The notes beneath the pieces were generated by a model. That model saw nothing but the letters and a program-made list of their open reading frames with translations, searched no databases and was not told the DNA's origin. A stretch of 64,000 nt of DNA from Candidatus Omnitrophota bacterium (lineage in GTDB: Bacteria; Omnitrophota; Gorgyraeia; Zapsychrales; Zapsychraceae): contig JAIORP010000178.1 of the NCBI GenBank assembly GCA_021108075.1, forward strand, positions 31,811 through 95,810. The letters run 5' to 3'. A program made the position numbers and the translations under genes. Below, one piece after another: positions 16,186 to 51,317 of this stretch; the stretch's first letter is position 1; the number at the start of each line of letters is the position of its first letter.

Positions 16186-16189
16186 AATT

Positions 16190-22390: not shown

Positions 22391-22399
22391 AGGAGATTT

Positions 22400-25604: not shown

Positions 25605-25607
25605 GAT

Positions 25608-26231: not shown

Positions 26232-26242
26232 AGGAGTACGCG

Positions 26243-27720: not shown

Positions 27721-27722
27721 GC

Positions 27723-28373: not shown

Positions 28374-28409
28374 AGACATTCTATCAACTCTTTATGATCA
28401 TACCAAATC

Positions 28410-28506
28410 TATTAATAAATTGTTCTATATTAATTTTGATATTCTCGCTAAATCGTCGAGAAAAGCAGAATTGGTGTTGGTCATTATTTAATGGAATTGG
28501 TATAAT
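28410..28506 (+). repeat. Promoter/operator repeat element, copy B (near-consensus), upstream of the 28651 operon
   Basis: Contains the 5' end ATACCAAATCTATTAAT, dyad TTCTCG-N9-CGAGAA (28443..28462), TTGGTC (-35-like), an 18-bp spacer, and TGGTATAAT (28498..28506). Confidence 0.8.
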
Positions 28507-28650
28507 TATATCAGTCAAGACTTGATGATTTTGACCTGCCGGGTTATGGTTTTGGAGATTTGCCTTTGTAGTCGATCCCGATCGCATTTTCCGGGTTAAC
28601 AAAATTGGCGATCAAAGAATAAAACAGATCAACGCGGAAAGGATAATATT

Positions 28651-29433
28651 TTGGAGCAACATTATTTAACAAAATTTTTTAATTTGGAAGGAAAAGTCGC
28701 GGTTGTGATCGGATCGGCCGGTTTTTTATGCAGTGAGATGGCGATAGGTTTAGCCCGGGCCGGTGTCGCGGTCGCTTTGTTAGATAAGAACGAAACGGGT
28801 TTAAGAAAGGTTTTAGCCAGGATTAAGAAACACCGGTCGCGGGCGATTACTTACCGGATGGATGTAACCGATAAAAACGCCCATCAACAGGCGCTTCAGG
28901 CTGTTCTTAAGGAATTCAAGAGAGTGGATATTTTGATTAACGGGGCGGGCATCAATGCTCCGACCCCGGTGATGGATATCGCGTTAGAGGAGTGGCACGC
29001 GATCATTGATTCGCATGTCACGGCGACGCTCTTCGGTTGCCAGGTTTTTGGCGCTCATATGATCAAACGCAAGAAGGGTTCTATTATCAATATGTCCTCA
29101 GCGTCCGCCGGTCCGCCCTTGTCCAGGGCGTTTACCTATTCGGTCGCCAAAGCGGGCATAAGAAACCTGACGCAGAATTTGGGGCGGGAGTGGGCCCCTT
29201 ATAACGTGCGCGTGAATGCCCTGCGCCCCGGGTTCTTCCCGACGGAATGGAGTAAGAAGCATTTTATTGATCCAGGCCGAAATGACGCGATCCTGGGGCA
29301 CACGCCCATGGGCCGTTATGGGAAACCGAAAGAATTGGTCGGTGGAGTGTTGTGGCTGGCTTCTGACGCGGCAAGCTTTGTGACCGGGTCCGAAGTCAGC
29401 ATCGATGGTGGTTTTAGCTGTATGACAATATAA
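28651..29433 (+). CDS. SDR oxidoreductase
   Basis: VIGSAGFLCSE, NGAG, YSVAKAG (YxxxK); 260 aa. TTG start as given by the ORF track; the first operon gene after a promoter-repeat copy. Confidence 0.7.
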   Translation: MEQHYLTKFFNLEGKVAVVIGSAGFLCSEMAIGLARAGVAVALLDKNETGLRKVLARIKKHRSRAITYRMDVTDKNAHQQALQAVLKEFKRVDILINGAGINAPTPVMDIALEEWHAIIDSHVTATLFGCQVFGAHMIKRKKGSIINMSSASAGPPLSRAFTYSVAKAGIRNLTQNLGREWAPYNVRVNALRPGFFPTEWSKKHFIDPGRNDAILGHTPMGRYGKPKELVGGVLWLASDAASFVTGSEVSIDGGFSCMTI

Positions 29434-29459
29434 AATACGGACATAAAAAAAGGTCAACA

Positions 29460-30209
29460 ATGAGCAAAACAGTTATTATTACCGGTGGAACAAAAGGTAT
29501 CGGCGCCGCGATCAGTCAGGTTTTTTATGAAGCGGGGTACCACGTGTTAATCGGCGCCAGGAATAATAACGGCCTGGCGTCCAGACTGGGTGAGCGCGCC
29601 CGTTTTTTGAAAATAGATGTCACGAAAGAACCGGACCACATCCGCCTTGCCAAAACAGCCTTGCGGTGGACAAAACGTTTAGATGTGTATATTAACAATG
29701 CCGGTTTTTCGCAATGGAAGCCCATCCATGAGTTCGACGCTGTGTTCTGGGATAAAATGATGGACACGAATTTAAAGGGCACGATGTGGGGCTGTAAAAC
29801 AGCCGCGGAATATTTATCCACAGGCGGTGTGATTATCAATATTTCGAGTTTGGCCGGTAAAAGGGGCAGCGCGAACAATTCCGCTTATTGCGCTTCTAAA
29901 TTCGGCGTGACCGGTTTAACCCAGGCACTCGCCAAAGAACTTGGCCAACAGGGTGTCCGCGTTAACGCCATTTGCCCTGTTTATGTCGAAACTGAAGGTT
30001 TACTCAGGGCCTTAAGGGACAAACGTTCACCGGCAAAAGGAAAAAGTATTAAGATTTATTTTCAGCGATTTAAAGAATCGCAGTCTGCCTTACAACGATT
30101 ACCCAAAGGAGAAGAGGTGGCCCAAACGTGTTTGTTTTTCGCGTCCGATGCGTCCTCCGCGATTACAGGGCAGTCGTTAAACGTGGATTGCGGGGTTTTG
30201 CCGTCCTGA
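29460..30209 (+). CDS. SDR oxidoreductase
   Basis: ITGGTKGIGAAI, NNAG, YCASKFG; 249 aa. Confidence 0.75.
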   Translation: MSKTVIITGGTKGIGAAISQVFYEAGYHVLIGARNNNGLASRLGERARFLKIDVTKEPDHIRLAKTALRWTKRLDVYINNAGFSQWKPIHEFDAVFWDKMMDTNLKGTMWGCKTAAEYLSTGGVIINISSLAGKRGSANNSAYCASKFGVTGLTQALAKELGQQGVRVNAICPVYVETEGLLRALRDKRSPAKGKSIKIYFQRFKESQSALQRLPKGEEVAQTCLFFASDASSAITGQSLNVDCGVLPS

Positions 30210-30241
30210 TGCAAGCCATCTGAATTCAAAGAAAGGTTTAT

Positions 30242-31021
30242 ATGCAGAAACAATTTCGAACAGTGGCTGTTATCCCGGCGCGGATGGGGGCGTCCCGGTT
30301 TCCGGGTAAACCACTTGTAAAAATATTAGATTTACCCATGATTGAACATGTGCGCCGGCGGGTTTCCTTGTGTTCCTGTATCGACGAGGTCTATGTCGCG
30401 ACATGTGATGAGGAGATCAAGCGGGCGGTTGAACGTTACGGCGGAAAAGCGATTATGACGGCGGACACCCATGAACGCTGCACGGACCGGGTTGAAGAAG
30501 CGATTCAGGATATCGACTGCGATATTGTCTTTATTTTTCAAGGAGACGAACCGCTGTTTGATTTGTCGGTCGCGGATAAATTGCTGCGGCCTTTTATCGA
30601 TCATTCCCAGACTCTTTGCAGCAATCTTATATCAACGATCAAGAACGAAGATGATTTACGCGACATGAATATTGTTAAAGCTGTCTTAGACCGGCGGCAA
30701 CGCGTCCTTTGTTTTTCACGGGCCGCGCTTCCGTATAAACGCGTCGGCACAGCCTGCCCCTTGTACCGCCAGACGGGTTTGTCAGCCTTTAAGCGGGATT
30801 TTTTGGTCCAGTTCTCGAATTTGGCACCGACTCCTTTAGAAATGAGGGAATCCATTGATTTTATGCGTATCCTGGAGCATGGCTTTGCTATTCAGGGTGT
30901 GGTCTTTGAACAAGAGCTTTTTGGAGTTGATGAGCCGCGGCATATCGCCATCATAGAAAAAATTTTACAGGAAAATCCAACACAAAAAGCTATCTACGAG
31001 GAGATTCGTGTCCATGTCTAA
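30242..31021 (+). CDS. KdsB-like CMP-ulosonic-acid cytidylyltransferase (CMP-Kdo synthetase family)
   Basis: VAVIPARMGASRFPGKPL N-terminal motif diagnostic for the KdsB / NeuA cytidylyltransferase fold; 259 aa. Confidence 0.75.
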   Translation: MQKQFRTVAVIPARMGASRFPGKPLVKILDLPMIEHVRRRVSLCSCIDEVYVATCDEEIKRAVERYGGKAIMTADTHERCTDRVEEAIQDIDCDIVFIFQGDEPLFDLSVADKLLRPFIDHSQTLCSNLISTIKNEDDLRDMNIVKAVLDRRQRVLCFSRAALPYKRVGTACPLYRQTGLSAFKRDFLVQFSNLAPTPLEMRESIDFMRILEHGFAIQGVVFEQELFGVDEPRHIAIIEKILQENPTQKAIYEEIRVHV

Positions 31022-31934
31022 AAAAATTTTTGTGGCATTAACGACCTTTGCCCAATACGGTCAAGAACCCGTTGAACGACTGGAAAAAAGCGGGTTTGAT
31101 TTTACGGTCAACAAACTCGGCCGGCGCCTGGTCAAAGAGGAAGTGATCCAGTACGGTCAGGGATGTCAGGGCATTATTGCCGGAGTGGAACCCTATGACG
31201 CGGATGTGATCGATCAAATTCCGTCTTTGGAATGCATCAGCCGGGTTGGTGTCGGGTTGGATAATATTGACTTACGCAAAGCGAAAGAAAAGGGCCTCAT
31301 CATCTGCAACACACCGGATGTGGTGATCCAGCCGGTCGCGGAGATGGCGGTCGCGATGATGTTTGATATGCTGCGGCGGTTATCTTTTCACACCTTAAAA
31401 ATGTGTTCGAAACAATGGGTCAAAAAAGCCGGAAATATGCTGTGCGGTAAAACAGTGGGGATTTTGGGCCTGGGCCGGATCGGCCGAAGGGTCGCGGAAA
31501 TGATGCGAAAACTTGATTTGGAAGTTCGCGGGTATGATGTTCATCCCGATCAGGACTGGGCTAAAAAGAATGGCGTATCTTTAGTTGGATTAGACGACGT
31601 GTTGTCAACGGCCGATATTCTCAGCCTGCACCTGGCCAGTGATAAGGACCATCCTTTTGTGTTGGGCTCAGCAGAGATATCAAAGATGAAAGACGGGGCG
31701 ATGCTCATCAATTTAGCGCGTGGCCAATTTGTTGATGAACAGGCCTTATATGACGCGCTTAAAGAAGAGAAGCTGGCGGGCGCGGCGCTTGATGTGTATT
31801 CACGTGAACCGTATGACGGCCCTTTATGCGGGTTGGATTCGGTGATCTTAACCCCGCATGTGGCCACATTAACGAAAGAATCGCGGCTGCAGATGGAAGT
31901 CGAAGCGACCGGGAACTTGATGAAAAACTTATAA
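31008..31934 (+). CDS. D-isomer-specific 2-hydroxyacid dehydrogenase (NAD-binding)
   Basis: GILGLGRIGRRVA NAD motif and catalytic R ... E ... H layout; 308 aa. Confidence 0.75.
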   Translation: MSMSKKIFVALTTFAQYGQEPVERLEKSGFDFTVNKLGRRLVKEEVIQYGQGCQGIIAGVEPYDADVIDQIPSLECISRVGVGLDNIDLRKAKEKGLIICNTPDVVIQPVAEMAVAMMFDMLRRLSFHTLKMCSKQWVKKAGNMLCGKTVGILGLGRIGRRVAEMMRKLDLEVRGYDVHPDQDWAKKNGVSLVGLDDVLSTADILSLHLASDKDHPFVLGSAEISKMKDGAMLINLARGQFVDEQALYDALKEEKLAGAALDVYSREPYDGPLCGLDSVILTPHVATLTKESRLQMEVEATGNLMKNL

Positions 31935-32030
31935 TAAATATGTTCAAACTTATCATTGAATAGTGATGTTGCTATTTGATCAGCGTTGGTATTTTAAAAG
32001 GTTAATCAGTGATATTGAGGCATGAAGTTT

Positions 32031-32064
32031 CCCCCTTATCTTGCTGCGGGGTGCGGGGTTCATT
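32031..32064. repeat. GC-rich hairpin motif (CCCCNTANCTTGCTGCGGGGTGCNGGGTTCATT family), copy 1, at the left boundary of the defense island
   Basis: CCCCCTTATCTTGCTGCGGGGTGCGGGGTTCATT is near-identical to 49353..49385. Confidence 0.7.
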
Positions 32065-32296
32065 CAAATCAATTCATGCACCGTTTTTATTCTGACAAGA
32101 GAAAGAAAAGAATAGTTGTCGTGCCACGCAAATGTGTGGTATAAAAGAGTTATCCCCTACACATAGTAATTCCCCGAATCACGTTTATTTAAACTTCAAA
32201 TCATTGTCCCGCATTAGAGAGGGAAAATTTGGACGTTAAAAAAGTAAAACCTTTGCTGGTAAATTATGGCGGGGTTTCTTTCATTTATATATAAGA

Positions 32297-33670
32297 ATGG
32301 GATTTAAAGCGAACAATAACAAAGGGGGCTTTCGTATGGAAAATGTTAATAATATTGATATAATACAAATTAAGAAGGGTACAACATCAGAACAATTAGA
32401 TAGCGATGAACAAATGAAAAAAGAAAAAAAGGATTTAAAGGTCTTATCATTATTCTCAGGTTGCGGCGGTTTAGATTTAGGATTTGAGGGTGATTTTTCA
32501 GTTTTAAAAAACTGTTTAAATAAAAGCGTTCATCCCGAATGGTTTAATGGTGGAAATAATTCTCAGTGGGTGAAAGTTCCTAAAACAAAATTTAAGGTTG
32601 TCTTCGCTAATGATATTATGCCTGCCGCTCGATCTTCATGGTTACCTTATTTCCAAAGTAAAGGAAATAGTGTGATTTTTCATACGGAAAGCATAGTCGA
32701 ACTTGTTAAAAAACATAAAAAAGGTAAAAAGATTTTTCCAAAGGTTGACGTGGTGACTGGTGGGTTCCCCTGTCAGGATTTCAGCGTCGCTGGAAAACGG
32801 AAAGGTTTTAATTCTCATAAAGGACATCATGGGGATCTTTTAACCTCAAAAGATAAGCCTACAGAAGAAAACAGAGGTAAGTTATACATGTGGATGAGGC
32901 ATGTTATCGATATAGTGCGCCCTAAAATGTTTATCGCTGAAAATGTCAAAGGTTTGGTTACTTTAGCGGACGCTAAAGTAATTATAGAAAATGATTTTCG
33001 TTCGATAGGTGAAGGTGGGTACGTGGTTGTTAGCGCTAAAGTGTTGTCCGCCGCTGATTATGGTGTTTCACAACGACGGGAACGCGTTCTTTTCATTGGT
33101 TTTAGAAAAGACACGTTGAAGAAGAAAGCTCTTCAGGCTTTTTCGAACGGGATTATACCTGAAGAGTTTGACCCATATCCAAGACCCACGCATGGCACGT
33201 CAAGAAACAATTGCGTTAGACCTTATGTTACCGTTAAACAAGCTTTGGTGGGTTTATATGAACCTGAAAGATCTTCTGATCTAGCGCAAAAATCTTTTTC
33301 AAGAGCGAAATGGTATGGCAGACATTGCCAAGGGCAAAATGAAGTCAATTTAAATGGCTTGGGGCCAACTATTCGTTCTGAACATCACGGAAACATTGAG
33401 TTTAGACGATTATCTCCAGATAATGGAGGTAAATACCTTGATGAAATTAAAAAGGGCATGAAAGAAAGAAGGTTAACTGTAAGGGAGTGCGCCAGATTAC
33501 AAACTTTTCCTGATGATTACGCGTTTGTTAGAAATTCTTCCACGAATGGAAATGGCTATAATCTCAGCGCTTCTGAGGGTTATAAATTAATTGGCAATGC
33601 GGTGCCTCCACTACTTGGTTTCCATTTGGCTTGGCGGTTGCAAGAAATATGGTCGGACGTTTTTAAATGA
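32297..33670 (+). CDS. DNA (cytosine-5)-methyltransferase, restriction-modification type
   Basis: Motif I LFSGCGGLDLGFE, motif IV GGFPCQDFSVAG, motif VI ENVKGL, motif VIII QRRERV, motif X GNAVPP; 457 aa. More likely start at 32336 (MENVNN). Confidence 0.85.
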   Translation: MGFKANNNKGGFRMENVNNIDIIQIKKGTTSEQLDSDEQMKKEKKDLKVLSLFSGCGGLDLGFEGDFSVLKNCLNKSVHPEWFNGGNNSQWVKVPKTKFKVVFANDIMPAARSSWLPYFQSKGNSVIFHTESIVELVKKHKKGKKIFPKVDVVTGGFPCQDFSVAGKRKGFNSHKGHHGDLLTSKDKPTEENRGKLYMWMRHVIDIVRPKMFIAENVKGLVTLADAKVIIENDFRSIGEGGYVVVSAKVLSAADYGVSQRRERVLFIGFRKDTLKKKALQAFSNGIIPEEFDPYPRPTHGTSRNNCVRPYVTVKQALVGLYEPERSSDLAQKSFSRAKWYGRHCQGQNEVNLNGLGPTIRSEHHGNIEFRRLSPDNGGKYLDEIKKGMKERRLTVRECARLQTFPDDYAFVRNSSTNGNGYNLSASEGYKLIGNAVPPLLGFHLAWRLQEIWSDVFK

Positions 33671-34797
33671 TACTATCTTCCAAGCGTGAAACGAAAAACA
33701 AACAATTTGAAGAACTGCTATCTTCCAGCCAACAGATTTTAGAAAAGAAAAATAAGTCTCACCCACCTTATTTCTCCAAGCGAACACCAACGGAATTTGA
33801 GAAGGATGTGCATGCCGCCATGGAGAAAGCCTCTATTGGCACGCCTTTTGAAGGCACTATTCAGTTAGTTTCTGGCCACCGTTTCCCAGATATTATTGAC
33901 GATGGATATTACGGTGTCGAAGTCAAAACCACTAAGACTAATTGGAAGAGTACGGGTAATAGCGTTTTAGAATCCACGAGAGTGGATAAAATTGAAAGAA
34001 TTTATTTGTTTTTCGGGCGTCTTTCTGACGCGGTCGCTTTCAAATTTCGAAGGTACGAAGAATGTTTGCATGAGGTTGCGGTAACGCATTCCCCCAGATA
34101 TTTAATTGACATGAATTTAGACGCTGGTAAAAGCATATTTGATAAAATGAAAATATCTTATGACGAGTTAAGAAAATTAGATAAACCAATAAAGCCTTTT
34201 GTTCAATATTATCGTTCAATCGCTCAATCGGGTGAAGAGCCATGGTGGATGGAAGGCGCTGATGATGAGGAAGAAACACTCGTGAAGCCCACGGTGTCTT
34301 TATGGAATAGTCTTCCCGTTGATGAGCAAGAAACCATGCGCAATCAAGCGATGGCCTTATTCCCGGAAGTGTTTAGTAATCGTTCCACGAAATACCATAA
34401 TCTTTCTTTATGGTTAGCGACCAGAAAAGGCGTTGTGGATTCATCACTAAGAGATAGGTTCACGGCTGGTGGACGAGAAACGCTTATAGTTAATGGTAAA
34501 AAATATAAAGATGTTCCAAAAATATTTTATCATTTAAAAGGAAATTTAGATAAAGTCGTTAAGCTCGTTAAAAAATTAGATCCTGAAGAAGCGAAATATT
34601 TTTGGAAAGTGGATCAAAACTTAGGTTCTTACACACTCCTGCCAACCTGGCTTGATTTAGTTGTTGGCTACGCGGAGAAGAACCTTGGGAGTAAAGGGAA
34701 GTTTATTGTGCATCTGATAGGTGATTATGCTGGTGAAAAGAACTCCTCACTATTTCTAAAAGAGGAAATGGCGAAATATGGATTAGATTATTCTTAA
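33667..34797 (+). CDS. Putative type II restriction endonuclease (PD-(D/E)XK candidate) cognate to the C5-MTase
   Basis: 376 aa ORF placed between the MTase and vsr with a 4-bp overlap; contains FPDIIDDGYYGVEVKT, which fits a PD-x(n)-ExK nuclease core. Confidence 0.45.
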   Translation: MILSSKRETKNKQFEELLSSSQQILEKKNKSHPPYFSKRTPTEFEKDVHAAMEKASIGTPFEGTIQLVSGHRFPDIIDDGYYGVEVKTTKTNWKSTGNSVLESTRVDKIERIYLFFGRLSDAVAFKFRRYEECLHEVAVTHSPRYLIDMNLDAGKSIFDKMKISYDELRKLDKPIKPFVQYYRSIAQSGEEPWWMEGADDEEETLVKPTVSLWNSLPVDEQETMRNQAMALFPEVFSNRSTKYHNLSLWLATRKGVVDSSLRDRFTAGGRETLIVNGKKYKDVPKIFYHLKGNLDKVVKLVKKLDPEEAKYFWKVDQNLGSYTLLPTWLDLVVGYAEKNLGSKGKFIVHLIGDYAGEKNSSLFLKEEMAKYGLDYS

Positions 34798-34798
34798 T

Positions 34799-35263
34799 AT
34801 GAAAAGAAAAATTAAAAATAAGTTGGGGAGAAATTTTAATCGTGAACGGCAAAAAGATAAGATTACGACTGATAAACGTTCCTCTGTGATGTCAAAAATA
34901 CGATCACGGGGAACAAAGTTTGAGACGGATTTCATAGACGAACTTTCGAGAATGGTAAAAGAAAAATTTGAAACGCACGTTAAGGATATTAGGGGTAAAC
35001 CAGACATTGTGTTCCGCGGTAAAAAGGTTTGTGTTTTTTTGGACAGCAACTTCTGGCACGGTTGGCAGTATCCTCGTTGGAAGCATTTATTAAAGAATGA
35101 TTTTTGGCGAAATAAGATAGAAAAAAATAGACTACGAGATCGAAATACAACCCAGTATTTACGACGTGAGGGATGGGCGGTTATTAGGATTTGGGAACAC
35201 TCCATAAAGAATGATATAGGGGTAGCCTTGAGGAGAATAATGGATGGAGTTGCCAATGGGTAA
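34799..35263 (+). CDS. vsr: Very short patch repair endonuclease
   Basis: RGKPDIVFRGKKVCVFLDSNFWHGW and C-terminal GWAVIRIWEH match the Vsr signature (DxxFWHG ... W.VLR.WE); 154 aa. Confidence 0.85.
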   Translation: MKRKIKNKLGRNFNRERQKDKITTDKRSSVMSKIRSRGTKFETDFIDELSRMVKEKFETHVKDIRGKPDIVFRGKKVCVFLDSNFWHGWQYPRWKHLLKNDFWRNKIEKNRLRDRNTTQYLRREGWAVIRIWEHSIKNDIGVALRRIMDGVANG

Positions 35264-35416
35264 AGAAATTAATATAGATAGTTGATTATTGTAATTGGGC
35301 GATATTCCGTGAATGGGAAACTCAAGACATAAGATCTTATGAATTAATCAGGAAGGCTGTTAAGAGTGAATATAATATTTTTCGGAGTGGCGAGACTTTT
35401 TATTATTGATTATAAA

Positions 35417-35455
35417 TGATGACCGCCCTGACTACTCTTTCGAGAGAGCCTTCTG
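35417..35455. repeat. 39-bp direct repeat, left copy (TGATGACCGCCCTGACTACTCTTTCGAGAGAGCCTTCTG) flanking the TIR-NTPase gene
   Basis: Identical 39-mer found again at 38185..38223; read directly from the sequence. Confidence 0.9.
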
Positions 35456-35543
35456 TCAAAATAAAAGATGTCAGGTATTATATGTTGTTATTCCTGGATT
35501 TATTATTCATTATTTCAGGTGAGAAATTATAAAGGAGAAAACA

Positions 35544-38171
35544 TTGGATATGAAAAATTATGCATCAAAAATGTTTATTAGCTATTCTCATGAAGACGAA
35601 TTATATATGGTTGAATTAAGGAAGCACTTAATTCTCTTAGAAAAAAAAGGCATATTAAACCAATGGTGTGATAAGGAGTTGGTCGCTGGGGATGAATTAC
35701 AGCCCGAGATAATGAAACATTTAGAAGATGCAGATATTATAGCATTTTTAGTAAGTATTGACTTCCAGAGTTCGGATTTCTGTGTTCGAGTAGAATTAGC
35801 GAAGGCTTTGGAGAAGAAAAAGAATCAGGGTGCTGTTATTATTCCAATAATAGTTCGAACATGTAGATGGCAAGATAGTGTGCTTGGCCAATTTGTAGCA
35901 GCAACAAAAAACGGCAACCCTATTTCGGATTATGAGAATGCCGACAAAGCTTGGGTTGAGGTTAGCATGTCTATTGAAAAAGTTGTTGAAAAATTCAATA
36001 AACAAAGAATTGAAAATAAGCCTGAGGATCAAGGCAAAACATTTTTTTTGAAAGAAGAATTTTTAAATGAATTAAACAATACAGAAATAATATTTCAGCA
36101 TAAACATAAAGAGTTTGTAACTCTGGAGGATATATATGTTTTTCCTGATGTAAAAGATTTAAAGAAGGAATACGATAAAATAGAATTGTTGATAAATTCT
36201 GAGCATATTCTTTCATTTGAAGAAGAACAACACCAAGATAAAATATTAATATTAGGAACGGAACAAGCTGGTAAAACTTCTTTAGCGAAAATGATGTTAA
36301 AAATTAGTTTGAATGCTAGCTGGCTGCCTGTTTTTGTTAAAGGGACAGAAATTAAAAGCTCTGATACAAGTGATATGTTGATGAAGTTGATTCCTGAGCA
36401 ATATCAAAAATTGACAAGAGATGAATATTTTAATCAATCTAGAAAGAAAATTTTATTTGTAGATGATTATCATCAATCGAAGTTGAATTCTAAGTATAGA
36501 TTTAGATTTGTTGATTCAGTAGTGAAGCAGTTTGATAAAGTTATTTTGTTTTCTGATAGTATGATGAAGTTTGATGAAATTAATTATTCCCATTTTTCAG
36601 GCTTCTATCAATACGAAATATTGCCTTTGGGGCATGAGCGAAGAGGGGTATTGATTGATAAATGGAATAGCATGGGGCAATCTGAAACGATTGATATTAA
36701 TGCTCTTTATCAAAGAAATGATATTGCAACTATGCACTTGAACGCCATACTAAGGAAGAATGTTGTTCCATCAAAACCACTATATGTTCTGACAATTATA
36801 CAATTGTTAGATACATCAGTTCCATCCGACTATACTTTGACATCTTATGGACATTGTTATCAAACGTTAATTCAACAAGCATTGCAAAAGGTGAAGGTGA
36901 CCATTAAGGATTTTGAGTTATATATTAATTACTTGTCAGAACTAGCATATTATATATTTGAATCAGGTAAAGACATAATAAATGAAGATGCCTTGTTTGC
37001 TTTTCAGCATGAATATTCTAATAAATATATTTTGGATTCTCACAAGAATGTTTTAAGTGTTCTAACAAAAGCAGGCATTTTGAGAATTGGTGATTCAGGG
37101 AATTGTTTTTGTTATCGTTATATTTATTATTTTTACGTGGCAAAGTATATTGCAGACCATCTTCAGACAGCTGATTGTAAAAAGACTGTAGAATATCTTT
37201 GCAAACGGATGCACACGGAGAGAAACGCAAATATTTTAATATTTCTAACTCATCACAGTAAAAATCAGGAGATTTTAGATAAAATATATTCATATACCAC
37301 AGATATATTTAAAGGAATAAATCAGGCTAAGTTGGACTCAGAAGAAACTGATTATTTGGCGGAATTTATGGGAGCAATTCCTCAGTTAGTTATTGAGCAG
37401 AGAAATGCTGAAGAGGAAAGAAAGAAAAAAGTTATAAGAAAAGATAAGATTGAAAGAGATGAGCAGGGCGAAGAGAATGAAGCTGACGATTTGAACGAAA
37501 GTACTCTAGCCGAAATCAATAAATCTTATAGGGCTGTTGATATTATTGGACAAATATTGAGGAATCGGCAGAATTCCTTAACAAGAAAGCAATTGTATGA
37601 TTTGACTTCGTCAGCATTTTCTTCAGGATTAAGATTTCTGAAATTTTTTCTTAATTTAACAACAAAATCAAAAGATGAAATATTAAACGTTATTAAGCAT
37701 CTGATTGAAGAGGATTCCAAGGTGTCTGGAGATGAGATGCCAAAGAAACATAAAATATCCGATGAGGACATAACAAAAAAAGCAAAAAGAATATTTCTAA
37801 TGATAAGTTATGGGATGTCATACTCGGTGATTAAGAAAATAGCTAATTCTACTGGGTCAAAAGAACTTATGCCAATCCTTAATAAAATTGATGAAGACAA
37901 TCCTGGTTCACCCGCTATTAAGCTAATTCAAATAGCAGCTCACCTTGAATTTGCAAAAACTATACCTGAAAAAGAAATACTTGCGTTGGATAAGACTTTA
38001 GAGAAAAATTTAATTGCTAAAAGGTTGTTGCAAGAAATAATTGTTCAATATTTATATTTACATAATGTTGACTACAAAAAAAGACAATGGATAGCTAGTA
38101 AATTAAAAATACCTTTAAGTTTTCAGCGAGAACTTCAACACGAAAAAGCTACAAAGGTGTTGGCTAAGTAG
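35544..38171 (+). CDS. TIR-domain + P-loop NTPase (STAND-like) protein with long alpha-helical C-terminal region; candidate antiphage defense protein
   Basis: N-terminus KMFISYSHEDE ... ADIIAFLVS ... RVELAKAL fits a bacterial TIR domain. Walker A LGTEQAGKTS and Walker B ILFVDDYHQ follow. 875 aa; conspicuously AT-rich codon usage. Confidence 0.75.
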   Translation: MDMKNYASKMFISYSHEDELYMVELRKHLILLEKKGILNQWCDKELVAGDELQPEIMKHLEDADIIAFLVSIDFQSSDFCVRVELAKALEKKKNQGAVIIPIIVRTCRWQDSVLGQFVAATKNGNPISDYENADKAWVEVSMSIEKVVEKFNKQRIENKPEDQGKTFFLKEEFLNELNNTEIIFQHKHKEFVTLEDIYVFPDVKDLKKEYDKIELLINSEHILSFEEEQHQDKILILGTEQAGKTSLAKMMLKISLNASWLPVFVKGTEIKSSDTSDMLMKLIPEQYQKLTRDEYFNQSRKKILFVDDYHQSKLNSKYRFRFVDSVVKQFDKVILFSDSMMKFDEINYSHFSGFYQYEILPLGHERRGVLIDKWNSMGQSETIDINALYQRNDIATMHLNAILRKNVVPSKPLYVLTIIQLLDTSVPSDYTLTSYGHCYQTLIQQALQKVKVTIKDFELYINYLSELAYYIFESGKDIINEDALFAFQHEYSNKYILDSHKNVLSVLTKAGILRIGDSGNCFCYRYIYYFYVAKYIADHLQTADCKKTVEYLCKRMHTERNANILIFLTHHSKNQEILDKIYSYTTDIFKGINQAKLDSEETDYLAEFMGAIPQLVIEQRNAEEERKKKVIRKDKIERDEQGEENEADDLNESTLAEINKSYRAVDIIGQILRNRQNSLTRKQLYDLTSSAFSSGLRFLKFFLNLTTKSKDEILNVIKHLIEEDSKVSGDEMPKKHKISDEDITKKAKRIFLMISYGMSYSVIKKIANSTGSKELMPILNKIDEDNPGSPAIKLIQIAAHLEFAKTIPEKEILALDKTLEKNLIAKRLLQEIIVQYLYLHNVDYKKRQWIASKLKIPLSFQRELQHEKATKVLAK

Positions 38172-38184
38172 AATTCAGAATAAC

Positions 38185-38223
38185 TGATGACCGCCCTGAC
38201 TACTCTTTCGAGAGAGCCTTCTG
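38185..38223. repeat. 39-bp direct repeat, right copy, followed by an inverted-repeat stem (CCGCCCTG ... CAGGGCGG) and a T-run
   Basis: Identical to 35417..35455. The downstream GGGCTCTTATTATCAGGGCGGAACCTTTTTT can pair with the CCGCCCTGA inside the repeat. Confidence 0.9.
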
Positions 38224-38538
38224 GGGCTCTTATTATCAGGGCGGAACCTTTTTTAAATTTAATAAGTATAGCACATTGATTAAACTTGTGTATGAAAGTG
38301 TACTTATAATAATGAAAACAATTTTTTTAGTGGCGAATATGTGTTAGATACCTTTTCTTTGGGATACGTTCGTATGCAATTATGAAAATGAAAAGTATCA
38401 GTTTTCATTTTTTGCGTATTACATGTTTTTTATGATGTTCGTGTATTTTTCAATATAGAAAGAAAAGACGGTTCGTCATGCCTGTTTCCAAGAAGCATTG
38501 ATCGGATTCGGAAAAGATATCGAGAAGAAATTTATTTA

Positions 38539-39459
38539 ATGAGTTCAATTTTAAATTGTCCGGTTTGCGATCATCCATTTGATGAAGGTGACGCGAAAAG
38601 CACGGCCTATCCGCAGGCAGGAACCGCGGGTTTTGGGCCTATGCCGCGGTCCATTCATTTTTGTCCGGAATGTCAGGCGGGTTTTATCACGACGGTCATT
38701 AACCAGGAGGAATTGGACCGGTACTATCAACAGGGCCGTTATTGGGACCAATCTTTTAACCGGCTTTCTATCCACACGCATCCGGGGCAATTTGTGCTCG
38801 CTCAATCCAGATGGGATATCATTAAAAACCAGATGTCCGCCGGCGAGTGTTCGATCTTAGATATCGGCGCGGGGCAGGCCTTCTTAGGCTGGATCGCGGC
38901 AAAAGACCCGTCTGTTTCGGTGGAGCGTTATTGCGCTGTCGAATCTGATGACAACTTGCGCGCGTCGGTCCAAAAGACATGGTCTGCTGGCGCGATCGAC
39001 GCGAAGTTGTCATTAAAGGAGAGTTTAGATCACGTTGAAGGGCGTTATGACTTGATCGTCTTATCGCATATTCTGGAACATATTTCCCGCCCGCAGGAAT
39101 TTTTAAGGCAAGCGCTGTCGTTCCTGACGGGAGACGGTTTGCTGTTTATTGACGTGCCCAATCAGGATTATCGGTTTAAGCCGGATGTCTTTCCGCATTT
39201 GCTCTTTTTTGATATTATGAGTTTAACGCGTTTGATCCAACATTCAGGATTGAGTGTGCTGAGTATAAACACATATGGTCCTTCGATCACACAGAAATTG
39301 AAAAGGCCAGGCGCGATGGAAAGAACGCTGGAACGCTGTGTTTATCGATTCAGAAAAATATTGCCTTCAGCCGCGTTACAAGGATTTTTCAGCGGACATT
39401 TTAAGGTTAATCGTTGCCAGGAAGATGGTCTCTGGCTCAGGGCTTTAGCCCGTCGGTAG
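38539..39459 (+). CDS. Class I SAM-dependent methyltransferase with N-terminal zinc-ribbon
   Basis: CPVCDHPFDEGD ... CPECQAGF then ILDIGAGQAFLGW SAM motif; 306 aa; GC-richer than the preceding island. Confidence 0.6.
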   Translation: MSSILNCPVCDHPFDEGDAKSTAYPQAGTAGFGPMPRSIHFCPECQAGFITTVINQEELDRYYQQGRYWDQSFNRLSIHTHPGQFVLAQSRWDIIKNQMSAGECSILDIGAGQAFLGWIAAKDPSVSVERYCAVESDDNLRASVQKTWSAGAIDAKLSLKESLDHVEGRYDLIVLSHILEHISRPQEFLRQALSFLTGDGLLFIDVPNQDYRFKPDVFPHLLFFDIMSLTRLIQHSGLSVLSINTYGPSITQKLKRPGAMERTLERCVYRFRKILPSAALQGFFSGHFKVNRCQEDGLWLRALARR

Positions 39460-39462
39460 GGG

Positions 39463-40044
39463 ATGATGTTTATTCGTCAAGTTGATAGAATTTTAGGCGG
39501 CCTTTATTGCAAGGCCCGGGGAGTCACATGCCCGGCAAGCGTTAATGTCTACGGCTTTCCCATCATAAAAAAGGATAAAGCCGCGTCCATTACTCTTGCT
39601 GACGGAGTGACTTTAACCAGTCGCAAAACGATCAATCTGGCAGGTATCGCCCATCCGGTTATCCTGGCCGCGCCGTATCCCCGAAGCCATATCGCGATCG
39701 GCCGGAATTCAGGAATGTCGGGCGGCGTTCTTTACGCGGTCAAATCTATTGTGATTGGAAAACACGTGAATATCGGTGTGAACACGTGCGTTTATGACAC
39801 GGATTTTCATCCCCTGGATTTTAAATTGCGGCGCGGGAATGACCCGCGAGATGCTGTCTGCGCGCCTGTTACCATTGAAGATGATGTCTGGATAGGCGGC
39901 GGCTGTTTGATCCTGAAAGGCGTTATGGTAGGAACAGGGGCGGTCATCGGTGCCAGGAGTGTTATCACAAAAGATATTCCACCGTTTACATTATGGGCGG
40001 GTAATCCCGCCCGGTTGATCAAAGAAATTCATCCCTCAAAATGA
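39463..40044 (+). CDS. Hexapeptide-repeat (LbH) acetyltransferase
   Basis: Repeating [LIV]G-x4 hexapeptides (IGRNSGMSGGVLYAV ... IGKHVNIGVN ... IGGGCLILKGVMVGTGAVIGARSVI); 193 aa. Confidence 0.65.
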   Translation: MMFIRQVDRILGGLYCKARGVTCPASVNVYGFPIIKKDKAASITLADGVTLTSRKTINLAGIAHPVILAAPYPRSHIAIGRNSGMSGGVLYAVKSIVIGKHVNIGVNTCVYDTDFHPLDFKLRRGNDPRDAVCAPVTIEDDVWIGGGCLILKGVMVGTGAVIGARSVITKDIPPFTLWAGNPARLIKEIHPSK

Positions 40045-41861
40045 TATCAATTATATTTATAAACAAGGCAAATCGGTTGAAGGCTGTTCTGGACGCCTGT
40101 TCGGATTCAACATGCGCCGTGCTGCGGGTGTTGTATAACCAACAGACGCCCGTGATACTGAACAAGCTAAGGGAACGCGGGGTTAAATATAAACAGATCA
40201 AAGGCCGGGATTATATCGCGCGGTATCAAAATAGTTATTCGCGATTCATAGGAGCTCTGAACATGAAATACGCGGGGCTTCATTGGTGGGCCCTGGACCT
40301 GACCAATAAAAATCCGATTACAACCCGTTTATTTGACGCGGTTTATTGCACCCTCTTAATTGAGAAGCTTGTTGAAAAAGGGGAATTTCAGACGATTGTC
40401 GTTATCAGTGAGGACAAAGACTGTTGTCGGCAGATACAGAGAAATCACGCGGAAAGTGTGAATGTCCATGTTCAAGATTTGACCGTGACCTTCCCGGTGA
40501 AAAAGTTTCTTCAACGGATATTCCCTTTAGGCCCCGTGTATAAGTTTTTATGGGCTTTAACAGGAAAATGTTGGGCCGCGTTGAATCTTCCCGCCCAAAA
40601 AAATTGGGAGAAAGCACCCACGCATTTTATTATGTCTTTGCTTTATGATCCCTGTTTTAAGACCGGCGAATATCAGGATGTCTACTTTGGCCCGTTTGTT
40701 GAATTCATGGCTGAGCGGAATATTCCGTTTGTCAATGTGATGGAGGTCTGCGCCCCGTATCATAAGATGATGAAACAGACCAAACAGAAAGCAAAACGTT
40801 TTGCCGTCTATCCGAAAGAATCGTTTTTATCCGTGAAGCACATGTTCATGAGCCTGATAGCCGCCCTCAAAGCTTTTTATCGCCCGGTCCGTTTGGACGC
40901 CCCGTGCGAGATCGATGGTGTTTGTTGTCAGTATCTCCTCAGACGATATATGCGTTATGAATATGTTTCAACCCGTTATTGTTCCAATCTGCTCATGTTT
41001 TACGCGTTTACCGATATTGCCCGGCAGTTTCCCGGTTGCACCATTTATTATCCTTTTGAAAACCGGTCGTTTGAAAAGATGATCATCAGCGCCGTCCGGC
41101 AGCATCCGTCGCGGATAAAATTAATCGCGTATCAACATGCCTCGGCAACGCTGCGTCATACGAATTTTTTGTTGGCGCAGGGAGAAGAAAAAATATTACC
41201 GCTACCGGACCGCGTTTACACTTTGGGAAGCATTACCCGGAATTTTATCATTGAGCAGGGCGGCTTTCCGCGGGAACTGTTTGTTGAGGGATGTGCTCTG
41301 CGGCAAAAACCTTATACCGGTGCGATCAAAAAGAAGTCCCCGGGCGTGAAGAAATTGCTGGTTGCCTTAGCGACCAACATTGAAGAATATGTCAAAGCTT
41401 TGTTATTTCTGTCTGAAGCGTTTGAATCCGGACAGGGTGAGTATGAGGTCTGGATCCGGCCGCATCCGGTTTTTCCGCTTGAAGACGCCCTGGCGATCAC
41501 GGGCCCGTTATCATTTCATTTTCATCAAGCGGATCAAGAGACCTTACCCGCATCCTTTCAATGGGCGGATATTCTTCTTTTTGTTCATTCTATGGTCGCG
41601 ATTGAAGGTTTGATGTATGGACTGCCGTGCCTGCGCCTCGTGGTGGATAACCCGGTTGATCCTGATCCATTGTTAGGGTGGACAGATTTTAAATGGGATG
41701 TCGCGCGACCGAAGAATTTGATAAAAACTATTGCGTCGATAGAGGCTCTTAGTGATAATGATTTCTATTCCAGGCAGAAAAAAGGCTGTTGTTTTCCTCA
41801 GGAATACATGCGGCCGGTTACAAAGGCGTTTTTAAACACACTTTTATACCAATTCCATTAA
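40041..41861 (+). CDS. Hypothetical protein, 606 aa; possible glycosyl/nonulosonyl transferase, about the same size as 19658..21484
   Basis: Long ORF with ATGA overlap to the acetyltransferase; no recognisable catalytic motif. Confidence 0.4.
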   Translation: MISIIFINKANRLKAVLDACSDSTCAVLRVLYNQQTPVILNKLRERGVKYKQIKGRDYIARYQNSYSRFIGALNMKYAGLHWWALDLTNKNPITTRLFDAVYCTLLIEKLVEKGEFQTIVVISEDKDCCRQIQRNHAESVNVHVQDLTVTFPVKKFLQRIFPLGPVYKFLWALTGKCWAALNLPAQKNWEKAPTHFIMSLLYDPCFKTGEYQDVYFGPFVEFMAERNIPFVNVMEVCAPYHKMMKQTKQKAKRFAVYPKESFLSVKHMFMSLIAALKAFYRPVRLDAPCEIDGVCCQYLLRRYMRYEYVSTRYCSNLLMFYAFTDIARQFPGCTIYYPFENRSFEKMIISAVRQHPSRIKLIAYQHASATLRHTNFLLAQGEEKILPLPDRVYTLGSITRNFIIEQGGFPRELFVEGCALRQKPYTGAIKKKSPGVKKLLVALATNIEEYVKALLFLSEAFESGQGEYEVWIRPHPVFPLEDALAITGPLSFHFHQADQETLPASFQWADILLFVHSMVAIEGLMYGLPCLRLVVDNPVDPDPLLGWTDFKWDVARPKNLIKTIASIEALSDNDFYSRQKKGCCFPQEYMRPVTKAFLNTLLYQFH

Positions 41862-41924
41862 AGAATTGTACAAATAACGAGAGCAAATCCAATAAATGTG
41901 CGCCACGATAATTCTTCTGACTTC

Positions 41925-42000
41925 TCATCGCTATTCGCGTAAAAGCGTTCGCGAAATACGATGAGAATTTTTGGCAATTATTTTATGGATTTGGTATTAA
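41925..42000 (+). repeat. Diverged partial copy of the promoter/operator element upstream of the radical SAM operon
   Basis: TTCGCG-N10-CGCGAA dyad followed by TTGGCAATTATTTTATGGATTTGGTATTAA, alignable to the 3' half of the consensus. Confidence 0.55.
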
Positions 42001-42009
42001 CAGGAAGCC

Positions 42010-43122
42010 ATGAAAAGACTCCATAGGTTATTATTCATCAATATCCCTTTATTGATACGCGCGGCCATCATTAAGGTTTGTCCGCCGATATATCCTGTTT
42101 TACGGTTTAAACCGTATTTAGCCACATTGAACGTCACGGAGAAATGTTGTCTGCGGTGTATCATGTGCAATCTATGGCGGGAATCTCATCCTGATGAGTT
42201 GAAAAAAGATGATTGGTTCAGGATTTTGGATGAGCTAAAGCTGGCAGGGGTTCAGGAAGTTAATTTCACCGGAGGGGAAGCCTTGATGCGCACGGATATC
42301 TTTGATTTGATTCATCACGCGAACACGTCAGGGATGAAATGCGGGTTAACCACAAACGGCTACCTTTTAACAGAAAAGAATATTAACCGTTTGATTCAAT
42401 CCGGGGTCAGGATTTTTAATATTTCCATGGATGCTGTCGGTTCCGCGTATGATGACATTCGGGGTGTCCAGGGCGGCTATGAACGGTTATATTCCGCCTG
42501 CCAACGTTTAAGCCGGGTTAAGAAAGAACAGGGTGTTGACGTGTATCTGTGTTTTTTATTGATGAAAAAAACGTTGGCGCATTATAAAAGTGTTCTGGCG
42601 ATCGGCGAAGAGTCAGGGTTGCCTGTTGTGATTAACCTGTTTGATGTGAACCCTTATTTTTTTCAATCGGCGGCTAAAAAAGATGATTTTTGGATCGGGC
42701 GGGAAGAGCAAAAGGAGTTTAAGGAATTCTTAAAATATATGGTGAATCAAAAAAGTCAAAACAAAGACTTTACGTATCATTCTTTCATCGAAATCGATTA
42801 TTTCTCAAAATATTTTAAGGACCCCCTGCAGAAGACCCTGCCGTGCGTCGTGTCACAAAGCCGGCTGTGCGTCGGACCAAAAGGGCAAGTTTACGGGGGT
42901 TGTTGGGCGATGGGAGAATATGGCCAGCTGCGTCAGCAATCATTAAAGGATATCATGCGTTCGGATAAGTTTAAAACGGCCCATAAAAAGATGTTTTTTA
43001 AAGATTGTCCCGGGTGTTCTTGCGGTTACGCCACGAATTTAAGATATTCGTTTAGAAATGTTTTAACAGAACTGGGGTACAGAATGTTCCCTAAAAAAAG
43101 AGAGAAGATTTATATTTCATGA
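42010..43122 (+). CDS. Radical SAM protein with C-terminal Cys-rich (SPASM-like) region
   Basis: CCLRCIMC (CxxxCxxC) near the N-terminus, C-terminal CPGCSCGY cluster; 370 aa. Confidence 0.7.
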   Translation: MKRLHRLLFINIPLLIRAAIIKVCPPIYPVLRFKPYLATLNVTEKCCLRCIMCNLWRESHPDELKKDDWFRILDELKLAGVQEVNFTGGEALMRTDIFDLIHHANTSGMKCGLTTNGYLLTEKNINRLIQSGVRIFNISMDAVGSAYDDIRGVQGGYERLYSACQRLSRVKKEQGVDVYLCFLLMKKTLAHYKSVLAIGEESGLPVVINLFDVNPYFFQSAAKKDDFWIGREEQKEFKEFLKYMVNQKSQNKDFTYHSFIEIDYFSKYFKDPLQKTLPCVVSQSRLCVGPKGQVYGGCWAMGEYGQLRQQSLKDIMRSDKFKTAHKKMFFKDCPGCSCGYATNLRYSFRNVLTELGYRMFPKKREKIYIS

Positions 43123-44036: not shown

Positions 44037-44045
44037 CCGTCATTT

Positions 44046-45470: not shown

Positions 45471-45473
45471 GAT

Positions 45474-46712: not shown

Positions 46713-46742
46713 TTATGAATAAAAAAATATCGCAATAATATT

Positions 46743-51307: not shown

Positions 51308-51317
51308 AGAGGGATAA

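What the first reader, a model, noticed from the sequence alone, without database searches (positions are those of the whole stretch)
31935..38538. Compositionally distinct defense island (R-M + Vsr + TIR-NTPase) inserted within a glycan biosynthesis supercluster
Both upstream (1..31934) and downstream (38539..54847) genes are polysaccharide / nonulosonic-acid biosynthesis genes on the same strand. The 6.6-kb block between them encodes only defense functions and is visibly more A+T-rich. Its left boundary carries one copy of a GC-rich hairpin motif that recurs next to an IS66 remnant (see the separate finding). Hypervariable surface-glycan loci may double as hotspots for defense-gene acquisition here.
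Basis: partly seen in the sequence, partly recalled or inferred. Interest (0 to 1): 0.6.

Follow-up and report, generated by a model that had tools for sequence, protein, structure and literature searches.

The report
Defence genes inserted in glycan operon
A 6.6-kb block carrying a restriction-modification system, its Vsr repair nuclease and a TIR-NLR-like immune gene was inserted between two adjacent genes of a sugar-biosynthesis operon in an uncultured Omnitrophica bacterium; this is a clean but ordinary case of horizontally acquired phage-defence genes.

Summary
Window 31935-38538 carries four + strand genes:
- a C5 cytosine methyltransferase
- a PD-ExK type II restriction endonuclease
- a Vsr mismatch nuclease
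- an 873-aa TIR + STAND/NACHT protein

Its GC is 0.35, against 0.47 (left flank), 0.43 (right flank) and 0.43 (housekeeping).

The insertion reading is supported. A syntenic metagenomic contig (L042, 71-78% nt identity over about 17 kb) has the 2-hydroxyacid dehydrogenase stop codon abutting the methyltransferase ATG. Two more distant loci also have the site empty.

The block is composite.
- The M-R-Vsr trio recurs as a 2.8-kb module (75-76% nt identity) on other contigs, twice next to a tyrosine integrase.
- The TIR-STAND gene has its own composition (GC 0.31). It is bracketed by a 44-nt direct repeat that is half of its terminator hairpin.
- Its STAND and C-terminal part matches the validated DS-8 defence protein, with TIR in place of the metallophosphatase.

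The window holds no integrase, transposase or tRNA.

The "GC-rich hairpin" motif is a real repeat (three copies). It lies 97 nt inside the insert, folds no better than shuffles, and shows no link to insertion.

The "glycan loci as defence hotspots" idea is untested: this is one event, and the site is empty in all relatives found. Verdict: new member of known kinds, modest interest.

The parts
31008..31934 (+). Left flank: D-2-hydroxyacid dehydrogenase of the sugar operon (called start 31014)
   Evidence: PF02826 1.5e-50. Homology to L042 runs up to 31924.
31935..32296 (.). Left spacer of the insert (GC 0.36), absent from the empty-site relative
   Evidence: No integrase remnant by tblastn. No Rfam hit.
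32032..32069 (+). GC-rich motif CCCCnnAnCTTGCTnCGGGGT..., one of three copies in the window (also at 49193 and 49353)
   Evidence: The fold is not better than shuffles.
32297..33670 (+). C5 cytosine DNA methyltransferase (M); gene callers start it at 32336
   Evidence: PF00145 2.1e-50; TIGR00675 158 bits; PADLOC MTase_II 2e-75; M.HaeIII and M.HhaI in the PDB.
33667..34797 (+). Type II restriction endonuclease (R), PD-ExK; overlaps M by 4 nt
   Evidence: PADLOC REase_II 9.4e-34. P74, D75, E85, V86 and K87 are invariant in 39 homologues. The AF2 model is closest to EcoRV, HincII and SwaI, weakly.
34799..35263 (+). Vsr very-short-patch-repair mismatch endonuclease (V)
   Evidence: PF03852 57.7 bits; TIGR00632 95.2 bits (cutoff 97.85); E. 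coli Vsr 1cw0 E 3e-9.
35412..35455 (+). Direct repeat copy 1 (43/44 identical to copy 2); holds only the 5' half of the hairpin
35550..38171 (+). TIR + STAND/NACHT (nSTAND4) + helical C-terminal protein, 873 aa; single-gene NLR-like defence candidate
38180..38223 (+). Direct repeat copy 2, starting 9 nt after the TIR-STAND stop codon
38191..38250 (+). Intrinsic-terminator-like hairpin plus U-run. It now sits upstream of the downstream glycan genes.
   Evidence: MFE -30.8 kcal/mol, z -3.8, 0/200 shuffles.
38251..38538 (.). Right spacer of the insert (GC 0.28). It would have to supply a promoter for the downstream glycan genes (inferred).
   Evidence: No convincing sigma-70-type site.
38539..39459 (+). 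Right flank: class I SAM methyltransferase of the sugar operon
   Evidence: PF13489. 62% identical to P0122 of L042. Homology to L042 resumes at 38548.

Best explanation
A composite defence island, built from at least two independently mobile modules, was acquired horizontally. It was inserted exactly between the stop codon of a 2-hydroxyacid dehydrogenase gene and the start codon of the next gene (a methyltransferase) in a conserved sugar-biosynthesis operon. The host is an uncultured Candidatus Omnitrophica bacterium.

Module 1 (32.3-35.3 kb) is a type II restriction-modification operon with its own Vsr.
- The C5 methyltransferase marks host DNA.
- The PD-ExK endonuclease cuts unmarked incoming DNA.
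- Vsr nicks T:G mismatches left by 5-methylcytosine deamination, so the methylated sites do not mutate.

Module 2 (35.5-38.2 kb) is a single-gene NLR-like system. By inference from the family, the STAND/NACHT ATPase and helical C-terminal sensor detect an infection cue and oligomerise. That brings the N-terminal TIR domains together into an active NAD+-cleaving enzyme, which halts the infected cell or makes a signal.

Shown: gene identities, intact catalytic motifs, composition, the empty site in relatives, and the modules' separate occurrence elsewhere. Inferred: the defence activity itself, the recognition sequence, the trigger, and the route of insertion.
For: Empty site:
- L042 aligns to window 23577-31924 at 78% and to 38548-48157 at 71-73%, with nothing in between. 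Its sequence there reads ...TAA ATG....
- L048/L049 have a 7-nt gap, and L050 is also contiguous.

Composition: GC 0.35 against 0.43-0.47. GC3 is the lowest in the window. The dinucleotide signature is an outlier.

Module 1 mobility:
- Window 32408-35217 is 75-76% identical in nucleotides to L046 and L047. There the trio follows a tyrosine integrase (PF00589) and is followed by different cargo, GmrSD_N in L046.
- The trio is also intact beside RadC, DpnI and an IS3 transposase in L051-L056.
- L047 has 46-nt tRNA-3'-end-like direct repeats after vsr.

Module 2:
- GC is 0.31.
- A 44-nt direct repeat brackets only this gene (0/300 shuffles).
- The nearest homologue is 52% identical. Homologues sit in other defence contexts: next to an Eco57I-like RM and ThsB-type TIR genes, and inside a BREX-like locus.
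- NCBIfam DS8_antiphage gives 617 bits over profile positions 284-994. DS-8 is experimentally validated (bioRxiv 10.1101/2025.01.08.631726).
- TIR E82 and Walker A G236/G241/K242/T243 and D305 are invariant in 40 homologues.
- The AF2 model is closest to the TIR-NLR RPP1, NLRP3/9, NOD2 and Avs4.

Not an assembly artefact: five other contigs from other samples or runs, besides the source contig, span the left junction. An independent assembly spans the right junction.
Against: - There is no integrase, transposase, tRNA gene or target-site duplication in or next to the insert, so the insertion route is unknown.
- The only close relative with an empty site is about 22-29% divergent. No same-species genome without the island was found: all six samples with the identical flank protein carry it.
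- Defence activity, recognition sequence and trigger are untested. Palindrome-avoidance analysis gave no clear target.
- The TIGR00632 and DS-8 scores are below their curated cutoffs.
Confidence: 0.85

Rival explanations
1. The block is ancestral to the operon and was deleted in the relatives.
For: Only one moderately close relative (L042) and two distant lineages were available. All same-population contigs carry the block.
Against: - Deletion would have to be precise to the stop/start codons in three lineages.
- GC, GC3 and dinucleotide signature are foreign.
- The M-R-Vsr module occurs at 75-76% nt identity in unrelated, integrase-linked contexts.
Confidence: 0.04
2. The island arrived as one piece: an integrase-borne element already carrying M-R-Vsr plus TIR-STAND, which later lost its integrase and att sites.
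For: - Relatives of the trio sit directly after an integrase and are followed by a variable defence gene.
- The left spacer of 362 nt is unexplained.
Against: - The two modules differ in GC (0.38 against 0.31) and in signature.
- The 44-nt repeat brackets TIR-STAND alone.
- There is no integrase remnant by tblastn.
- The left/right 26-nt similarity is not significant (21/300 shuffles).
Confidence: 0.2
3. The genes are not primarily defensive. The R-M pair would be a selfish addiction module or epigenetic regulator, and the TIR-STAND protein would have another signalling role.
For: No function was tested here. R-M systems are known to behave as addiction modules (established knowledge).
Against: - The STAND part is homologous to the validated DS-8.
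- Homologues sit in defence neighbourhoods.
- The catalytic motifs are intact.
Confidence: 0.1
4. The arrangement is an assembly chimera caused by the 44-nt repeat.
For: Logan (k=31) contigs break exactly at the repeat.
Against: Two independent ENA assemblies from different samples read through both repeat copies with the same order (L001, L002). The repeat is shorter than typical reads.
Confidence: 0.03

Closest known systems
Type II restriction-modification operons with a linked Vsr (C5-methyltransferase + REase + V gene, as in Dcm/Vsr-type and HpaII-type arrangements; own knowledge)
   Same: - Same three functions in one tightly packed operon: a 4-nt overlap and a 1-nt gap.
- C5 methyltransferase motifs, a PD-ExK nuclease and Vsr catalytic-region similarity to E. 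coli Vsr.
   Different: - The REase family has no Pfam, NCBIfam or PDB sequence match and is annotated only as 'hypothetical' in public records.
- The recognition sequence is unknown.
DS-8 (DefensePredictor system: metallophosphatase + NACHT single protein, validated in E. coli; bioRxiv 10.1101/2025.01.08.631726)
   Same: The STAND/NACHT module and the whole C-terminal region are homologous (NF053861, E 3.9e-185, profile positions 284-994). Both are single-gene systems.
   Different: - The N-terminal effector is a TIR domain instead of the metallophosphatase.
- The score of 617 bits is below the equivalog cutoff of 790.
- More distant homologues carry metallophosphatase, caspase-like or PNP domains instead.
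Avs/AVAST and bacterial NACHT proteins; plant TIR-NLRs such as RPP1
   Same: - Tripartite layout of effector, STAND ATPase and helical sensor.
- The AF2 model's best PDB matches are RPP1, NLRP3/9, NOD2 and Avs4.
- TIR with a conserved catalytic Glu.
   Different: - No PADLOC Avs model matched. Only PDC-S60, ThsB-type TIR models and a SAVED_TIR model matched.
- The sensor domain is all-helical and shows no recognised repeat family.
Thoeris ThsB
   Same: The TIR domain matches PADLOC ThsB1 at 1.8e-42.
   Different: There is no ThsA partner gene in the island. The TIR is fused to its own STAND sensor.
Integrase-borne genomic/defence islands at tRNA genes
   Same: Relatives of the M-R-Vsr module are carried next to tyrosine integrases. 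One has tRNA-3'-end-like direct repeats.
   Different: In this window there is no integrase, tRNA gene or att-like flanking repeat. The target is an intergenic point inside an operon.

Membership tests
Type II restriction-modification system | DNA methyltransferase with the C5 catalytic motifs | tested here: met
   PF00145 at 172.5 bits (cutoff 22); TIGR00675 at 158.3 bits (cutoff 100.65); PDB M.HaeIII E 2e-25.
Type II restriction-modification system | Adjacent separate endonuclease with a nuclease active site | tested here: met
   PADLOC REase_II 9.4e-34. The invariant PD...ExK is P74, D75, E85, V86, K87. The fold match to EcoRV, HincII and SwaI is weak (E 2.6e-3, TM about 0.4).
Type II restriction-modification system | Methyltransferase and endonuclease share one recognition sequence; cleavage is blocked by methylation | not testable with these tools
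   Palindrome under-representation gave no clear candidate.
Vsr (very short patch repair endonuclease) | Match to the Vsr family models and to solved Vsr | tested here: met
   PF03852 at 57.7 bits (cutoff 27); 1cw0 E 3e-9. TIGR00632 at 95.2 bits is just under its 97.85 cutoff.
DS-8 (NF053861 equivalog) | Whole-protein score above the curated cutoff, including the N-terminal metallophosphatase | tested here: not met
   617.4 bits against a cutoff of 790. Only profile positions 284-994 match. The N-terminus is a TIR domain.
PADLOC candidate PDC-S60 | Match to the PDC-S60 model | tested here: met
   E 6.4e-105, profile positions 143-900 of 906. The candidate status of PDC-S60 rests on PADLOC's own labelling. 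No paper in the library mentions it.
STAND/NLR-like TIR effector protein | Intact Walker A/B and TIR catalytic glutamate | tested here: met
   G236, G241, K242, T243, D305 and E82 are invariant in 40 homologues.
STAND/NLR-like TIR effector protein | Trigger-dependent oligomerisation and NADase activity | not testable with these tools
   Inferred from family knowledge and from the structural match to RPP1 and Avs4.
Thoeris | ThsB TIR gene paired with a ThsA effector gene | tested here: not met
   Only four genes lie in the insert, and none is ThsA-like.
Integrase-mediated genomic island | Integrase gene, flanking att direct repeats, often a tRNA target | tested here: not met
   No integrase or remnant. 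No tRNA gene in the window. The left/right repeat is not significant. The features are met only in the relatives L046 and L047.

The most novel reading that the evidence does not exclude
The 44-nt direct repeat that brackets only the TIR-STAND gene ends in the loop of its terminator hairpin. It could be the footprint of an undescribed cassette-type mechanism: a circular single-gene defence cassette recombining at a hairpin core. Such a mechanism would load variable defence genes into the slot downstream of M-R-Vsr modules. That slot holds GmrSD, an unknown gene, or TIR-STAND in different relatives.
Probability: 0.08. Interest if true: 0.6.

Novelty: new member of a known kind. Interest (0 to 1): 0.3.

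Why it matters
- It is a well-documented case, with an empty-site comparison, of defence genes landing inside a surface-glycan operon in the little-studied phylum Omnitrophota.
- It shows that the insertion split two translationally coupled genes and put a strong terminator in front of the downstream glycan genes. Acquiring defence genes may therefore have changed expression of a likely phage-receptor glycan.
- It adds a TIR-effector version to the recently validated DS-8 STAND family.
- It flags an uncharacterised but widespread REase family (more than 2000 homologues) that always travels with a C5 methyltransferase and Vsr in the contexts examined.
- None of this changes current understanding of defence islands.

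Tried and rejected
- GTDB species representatives searched with the 2-hydroxyacid dehydrogenase: best hit 36% identical, so no close genome.
- JGI metagenome scans for the GC-rich motif and for the flank methyltransferase: nothing found.
- IMG/VR scan for the 44-nt repeat: nothing. The REase has only 32-38% relatives in viral contigs (not followed up).
- Rfam, at gathering thresholds on the whole window and at E-value thresholds on the insert and on 49.0-49.5 kb: no hit.
- Synonymous-codon likelihood against the housekeeping genes did not separate the island. GC3 and dinucleotide signature did.
- A 26-nt left/right similarity (32100 and 38457) was considered as an att site and rejected: 21/300 shuffles reach its score.
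- tblastn of relatives' integrases against the three spacers: no remnant.
- Flanking direct repeats around TIR-STAND homologues in L043-L045: none.
- Palindrome avoidance to guess the R-M target: no clear signal in the host DNA. CCGG, GGCC and GATC are mildly depleted within the island only, on tiny counts.
- PDB sequence search for the REase: only chance hits.
- Literature searches for PDC-S60 and nSTAND4 returned nothing useful.
Full report
**What is there.** The interval 31935-38538 holds four + strand genes.
- 32297 (called start 32336)-33670 is a C5 cytosine DNA methyltransferase: PF00145 at 172 bits, TIGR00675 at 158 bits (above its cutoff), PADLOC MTase_II 2e-75. Its best solved relatives are M.HaeIII and M.HhaI.
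- 33667-34797 overlaps it by 4 nt. It matches PADLOC's type II REase model PDLC03508 (9.4e-34) but has no Pfam, NCBIfam or PDB sequence match.
  - In an alignment of 39 homologues, P74, D75, E85, V86 and K87 are invariant. This is a classical PD...ExK nuclease motif.
  - An AlphaFold2 model (pLDDT 83.7) is closest, weakly, to EcoRV, HincII and SwaI.
- 34799-35263 is a Vsr mismatch endonuclease: PF03852 at 57.7 bits, E. coli Vsr 1cw0 at E 3e-9. TIGR00632 at 95.2 bits is just under its cutoff.
- 35550-38171 encodes an 873-aa protein with an N-terminal TIR domain, a STAND/NACHT P-loop module (Pfam nSTAND_NTPase4) and a long helical C-terminal region.

**Composition.**
- The insert has GC 0.348. 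The left flank has 0.472, the right flank 0.434 and the housekeeping genes at the right end of the window (pgk, tpiA, secG, opp) 0.429.
- GC3 is 0.30, 0.36, 0.37 and 0.27 for the four genes, against 0.50-0.60 for the adjacent glycan genes and 0.36-0.51 for the housekeeping genes.
- TIR-STAND has the lowest GC3 of all 58 genes scored.
- The 3-kb window over TIR-STAND has the largest dinucleotide-signature distance in the window: 131-140, against at most 93 outside the island.
- Two caveats apply. The glycan cluster is itself a mosaic, with other AT-rich blocks at 421-1899 and 19658-23560. The immediate flanks are GC-richer than the housekeeping genes, which enlarges the visible step.

**Surroundings.** Every gene from 421 to 54847 is on the + strand.
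- By Pfam and NCBIfam these are nonulosonic-acid or polysaccharide genes. They include NeuB, UDP-GlcNAc 2-epimerase, PglD-like acetyltransferase, DegT aminotransferase, three CMP-sugar-type cytidylyltransferases, WbuX with HisH/HisF-like partners, a NanM-like sugar O-methyltransferase, several glycosyltransferases, a WecG-type and a Bac_transf initiating transferase, and a Wzy_C protein.
- The cluster also holds an ABC transporter and an IS66 remnant.
- The cluster ends at about 54847 and is followed by pgk, tpiA and secG.
- NCBI labels the identical flank methyltransferase and the identical REase 'MAG: Candidatus Omnitrophica bacterium'.
- The window is 100% identical to ENA contig ERZ26872899 NODE_8.

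**Is it an insertion?** Yes, on the evidence available.
- The flank methyltransferase has a 62% identical relative (P0122) on a 35-kb JGI contig, L042.
- blastn aligns L042 923-9981 to window 23577-31924 at 78% identity, and L042 10010-19409 to window 38548-48157 at 71-73%.
- In L042 the dehydrogenase stop codon is immediately followed by the methyltransferase ATG (...TAA ATG...). All 6,604 bp between the two genes in the window are therefore extra, including about 360 bp of spacer at each end.
- Two more distant lineages with the same module order also have the site closed. The order is methyltransferase, SIS, transaldolase-like, HpcH aldolase, HAD, two SDRs, cytidylyltransferase, 2-hydroxyacid dehydrogenase, methyltransferase, hexapeptide acetyltransferase. 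L048/L049 have a 7-nt gap, and L050 runs cytidylyltransferase to methyltransferase.
- With three lineages empty, foreign composition and the modules found elsewhere (below), insertion in this lineage is far more parsimonious than three precise deletions.
- The junctions are not an assembly artefact. Contigs from five other samples or runs cross the left junction, and an independent assembly (L002) crosses both repeat copies and the right junction.
- Limitation: every contig that carries the identical flank protein also carries the island. No same-species empty site was seen. No close genome exists among the GTDB species representatives, where the best hit is 36% identical.

**The island is composite: the M-R-Vsr module.**
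- Window 32408-35217 aligns at 75-76% nucleotide identity to two unrelated contigs, L046 and L047. Similarity stops at the ends of the three genes.
- In both, the trio lies directly downstream of a tyrosine integrase. L046 also has an HTH_17 gene upstream and a GmrSD-type gene downstream. L047 has an unknown 235-aa gene downstream.
- L047 also has a 46-nt perfect direct repeat that looks like a tRNA 3' end (...CCCCGCAACCA). It lies 85 nt after vsr and again 1,228 nt later, as expected of att sites.
- More distant copies of the trio (51-55% REase identity) sit beside RadC, DpnI, an IS3 transposase or a predicted nuclease.
- The trio is thus a conserved three-gene module that moves between varied, defence-rich contexts.

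**The island is composite: the TIR-STAND module.**
- The TIR-STAND gene has a lower GC (0.31 against 0.38).
- Its nearest relative is only 52% identical.
- It is bracketed by a 44-nt direct repeat at 35412-35455 and 38180-38223: 43/44 identical, with an exact run of 39 nt, and 0/300 shuffles reaching the score.
- The downstream copy is the 5' half of a strong terminator-like hairpin followed by a U-run (38191-38250; -30.8 kcal/mol, z -3.8). The upstream copy lacks the 3' half.
- Homologues of the gene occur next to an Eco57I-like R-M and ThsB-type TIR genes (L043), and between a PglX-like methyltransferase and PglZ (L045). None has such repeats.

**What the TIR-STAND protein is.**
- PADLOC assigns it to candidate PDC-S60 (6e-105). 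Its TIR matches ThsB-type models (1.8e-42).
- NCBIfam's DS8_antiphage equivalog matches at E 3.9e-185, but only over profile positions 284-994 and below the cutoff (617 against 790 bits).
- DS-8 is a metallophosphatase-NACHT single-protein system. It protects E. coli from phage and needs both domains (bioRxiv 10.1101/2025.01.08.631726).
- The present protein is therefore an effector-swapped relative. More distant homologues carry metallophosphatase, caspase-like or PNP-type N-termini on the same STAND body.
- TIR E82 and Walker A G236, G241, K242, T243, plus D305, are invariant across 40 homologues.
- The AlphaFold2 model (pLDDT 82.7) is closest to the plant TIR-NLR RPP1, NLRP3/9, NOD2 and Avs4 bound to a phage portal.
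- The likely mechanism is inferred from these families and not shown here. The sensor would recognise an infection cue, nucleotide-dependent oligomerisation would follow, the TIR domains would assemble into an NADase, and NAD+ depletion or signal production would stop the infection.

**How it got there is not resolved.**
- The insert has no integrase, transposase or recognisable remnant. It has no tRNA gene and no significant terminal repeat or target duplication.
- The copy in the island lies 97 nt inside the insert, and there is none at the right end.
- The motif folds no better than shuffled sequence.
- The other two copies bound a nested insert of about 190 nt inside one copy of a separate palindromic, MITE-like element. 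That element's 17-nt ends (ATACCAAWTCCATTAAW) mark six glycan-module junctions in the window.
- This is worth a separate look, but nothing ties it to the insertion of the defence block.

**Consequences and the hotspot idea.**
- The insertion separated two genes that are contiguous in relatives. It placed a terminator-like hairpin 290 nt upstream of the downstream glycan genes, so those genes now need a promoter in the AT-rich right spacer (GC 0.28). This is an inference; a sigma-70-type scan was uninformative.
- The proposal that glycan loci serve as defence-gene hotspots rests here on a single event. The site is empty in all relatives. tblastn with the four island proteins found no homologue in 35 loci (562 kb) around homologues of the flanking sugar genes. 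That test covers only these four families, so the general idea remains untested rather than refuted.

**Verdict.** All components belong to known kinds:
- a type II R-M operon with Vsr;
- a STAND/NLR-like TIR protein of the DS-8/PDC-S60 family;
- modular defence-island assembly.

The one unexplained feature is the 44-nt hairpin-derived repeat around the TIR-STAND gene.

Noticed in passing
window 7021-7124, 28400-28503, 41846-41997, 46621-46702, 49112-49396, 54828-54931: A palindromic MITE-like element of about 82-152 nt (one copy is 285 nt) with 17-nt terminal inverted repeats ATACCAAWTCCATTAAW. It sits at six junctions between glycan gene modules. There are 12 half-sites against 0.1 expected by chance.
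   Followed up: partly
window 49193-49390: Two copies of the GC-rich motif CCCCnnAnCTTGCTnCGGGGT, 160 nt apart, bound a nested insert inside one MITE-like element. A third copy lies at 32032 in the island's left spacer. No Rfam match.
   Followed up: partly
window 48212-48923: IS66 remnant: a 67-aa DDE_Tnp_IS66 fragment (48600-48803) between 53-nt imperfect inverted repeats (48212-48264 and 48871-48923). In the syntenic relative L042 this position holds a UDP-galactopyranose mutase gene instead.
   Followed up: partly
window 37823 (L002 position 4112): In the assembly from sample ERZ26872904, C37823A turns Tyr758 of the TIR-STAND gene into a stop codon (757 + 114 aa). Coverage is only about 4x, so it may be a real decaying allele or an error.
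   Followed up: partly
window 23557-40044; L042, L048-L050: A conserved roughly 11-gene sugar module is shared with several metagenomic loci. Its order is methyltransferase, SIS, transaldolase-like, HpcH aldolase, HAD, two SDRs, CMP-type cytidylyltransferase, 2-hydroxyacid dehydrogenase, methyltransferase, hexapeptide acetyltransferase. It looks like a pathway for an unusual CMP-activated keto-sugar acid.
   Followed up: no
L047 6895-6940 and 8123-8168: A 46-nt perfect direct repeat resembling a tRNA 3' end (ends ...CCCCGCAACCA) lies just downstream of the int-M-R-Vsr block. It suggests tandem tRNA-targeted islands. ARAGORN finds no whole tRNA gene on the 8.8-kb contig.
   Followed up: partly
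L045 2692-10303: A 43% identical TIR-STAND homologue sits between a PglX-like N6/N4 methyltransferase and PglZ, that is, embedded in a BREX-like locus.
   Followed up: no
window 421-1899 and 19658-23560: Further AT-rich blocks (GC3 0.32-0.38) lie within the glycan cluster. They hold glycan genes (cytidylyltransferase, methyltransferases, a PFTS_polysacc protein, a NanM-like O-methyltransferase). The supercluster is therefore a mosaic of differently sourced modules.
   Followed up: no
window 33667-34797 and homologues P0204-P0323: The REase belongs to a large family (2,078 hits at E<=1e-5) annotated only as 'hypothetical protein', with no Pfam or NCBIfam model. In all five contexts examined it is flanked by a C5 methyltransferase and Vsr.
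   Followed up: partly
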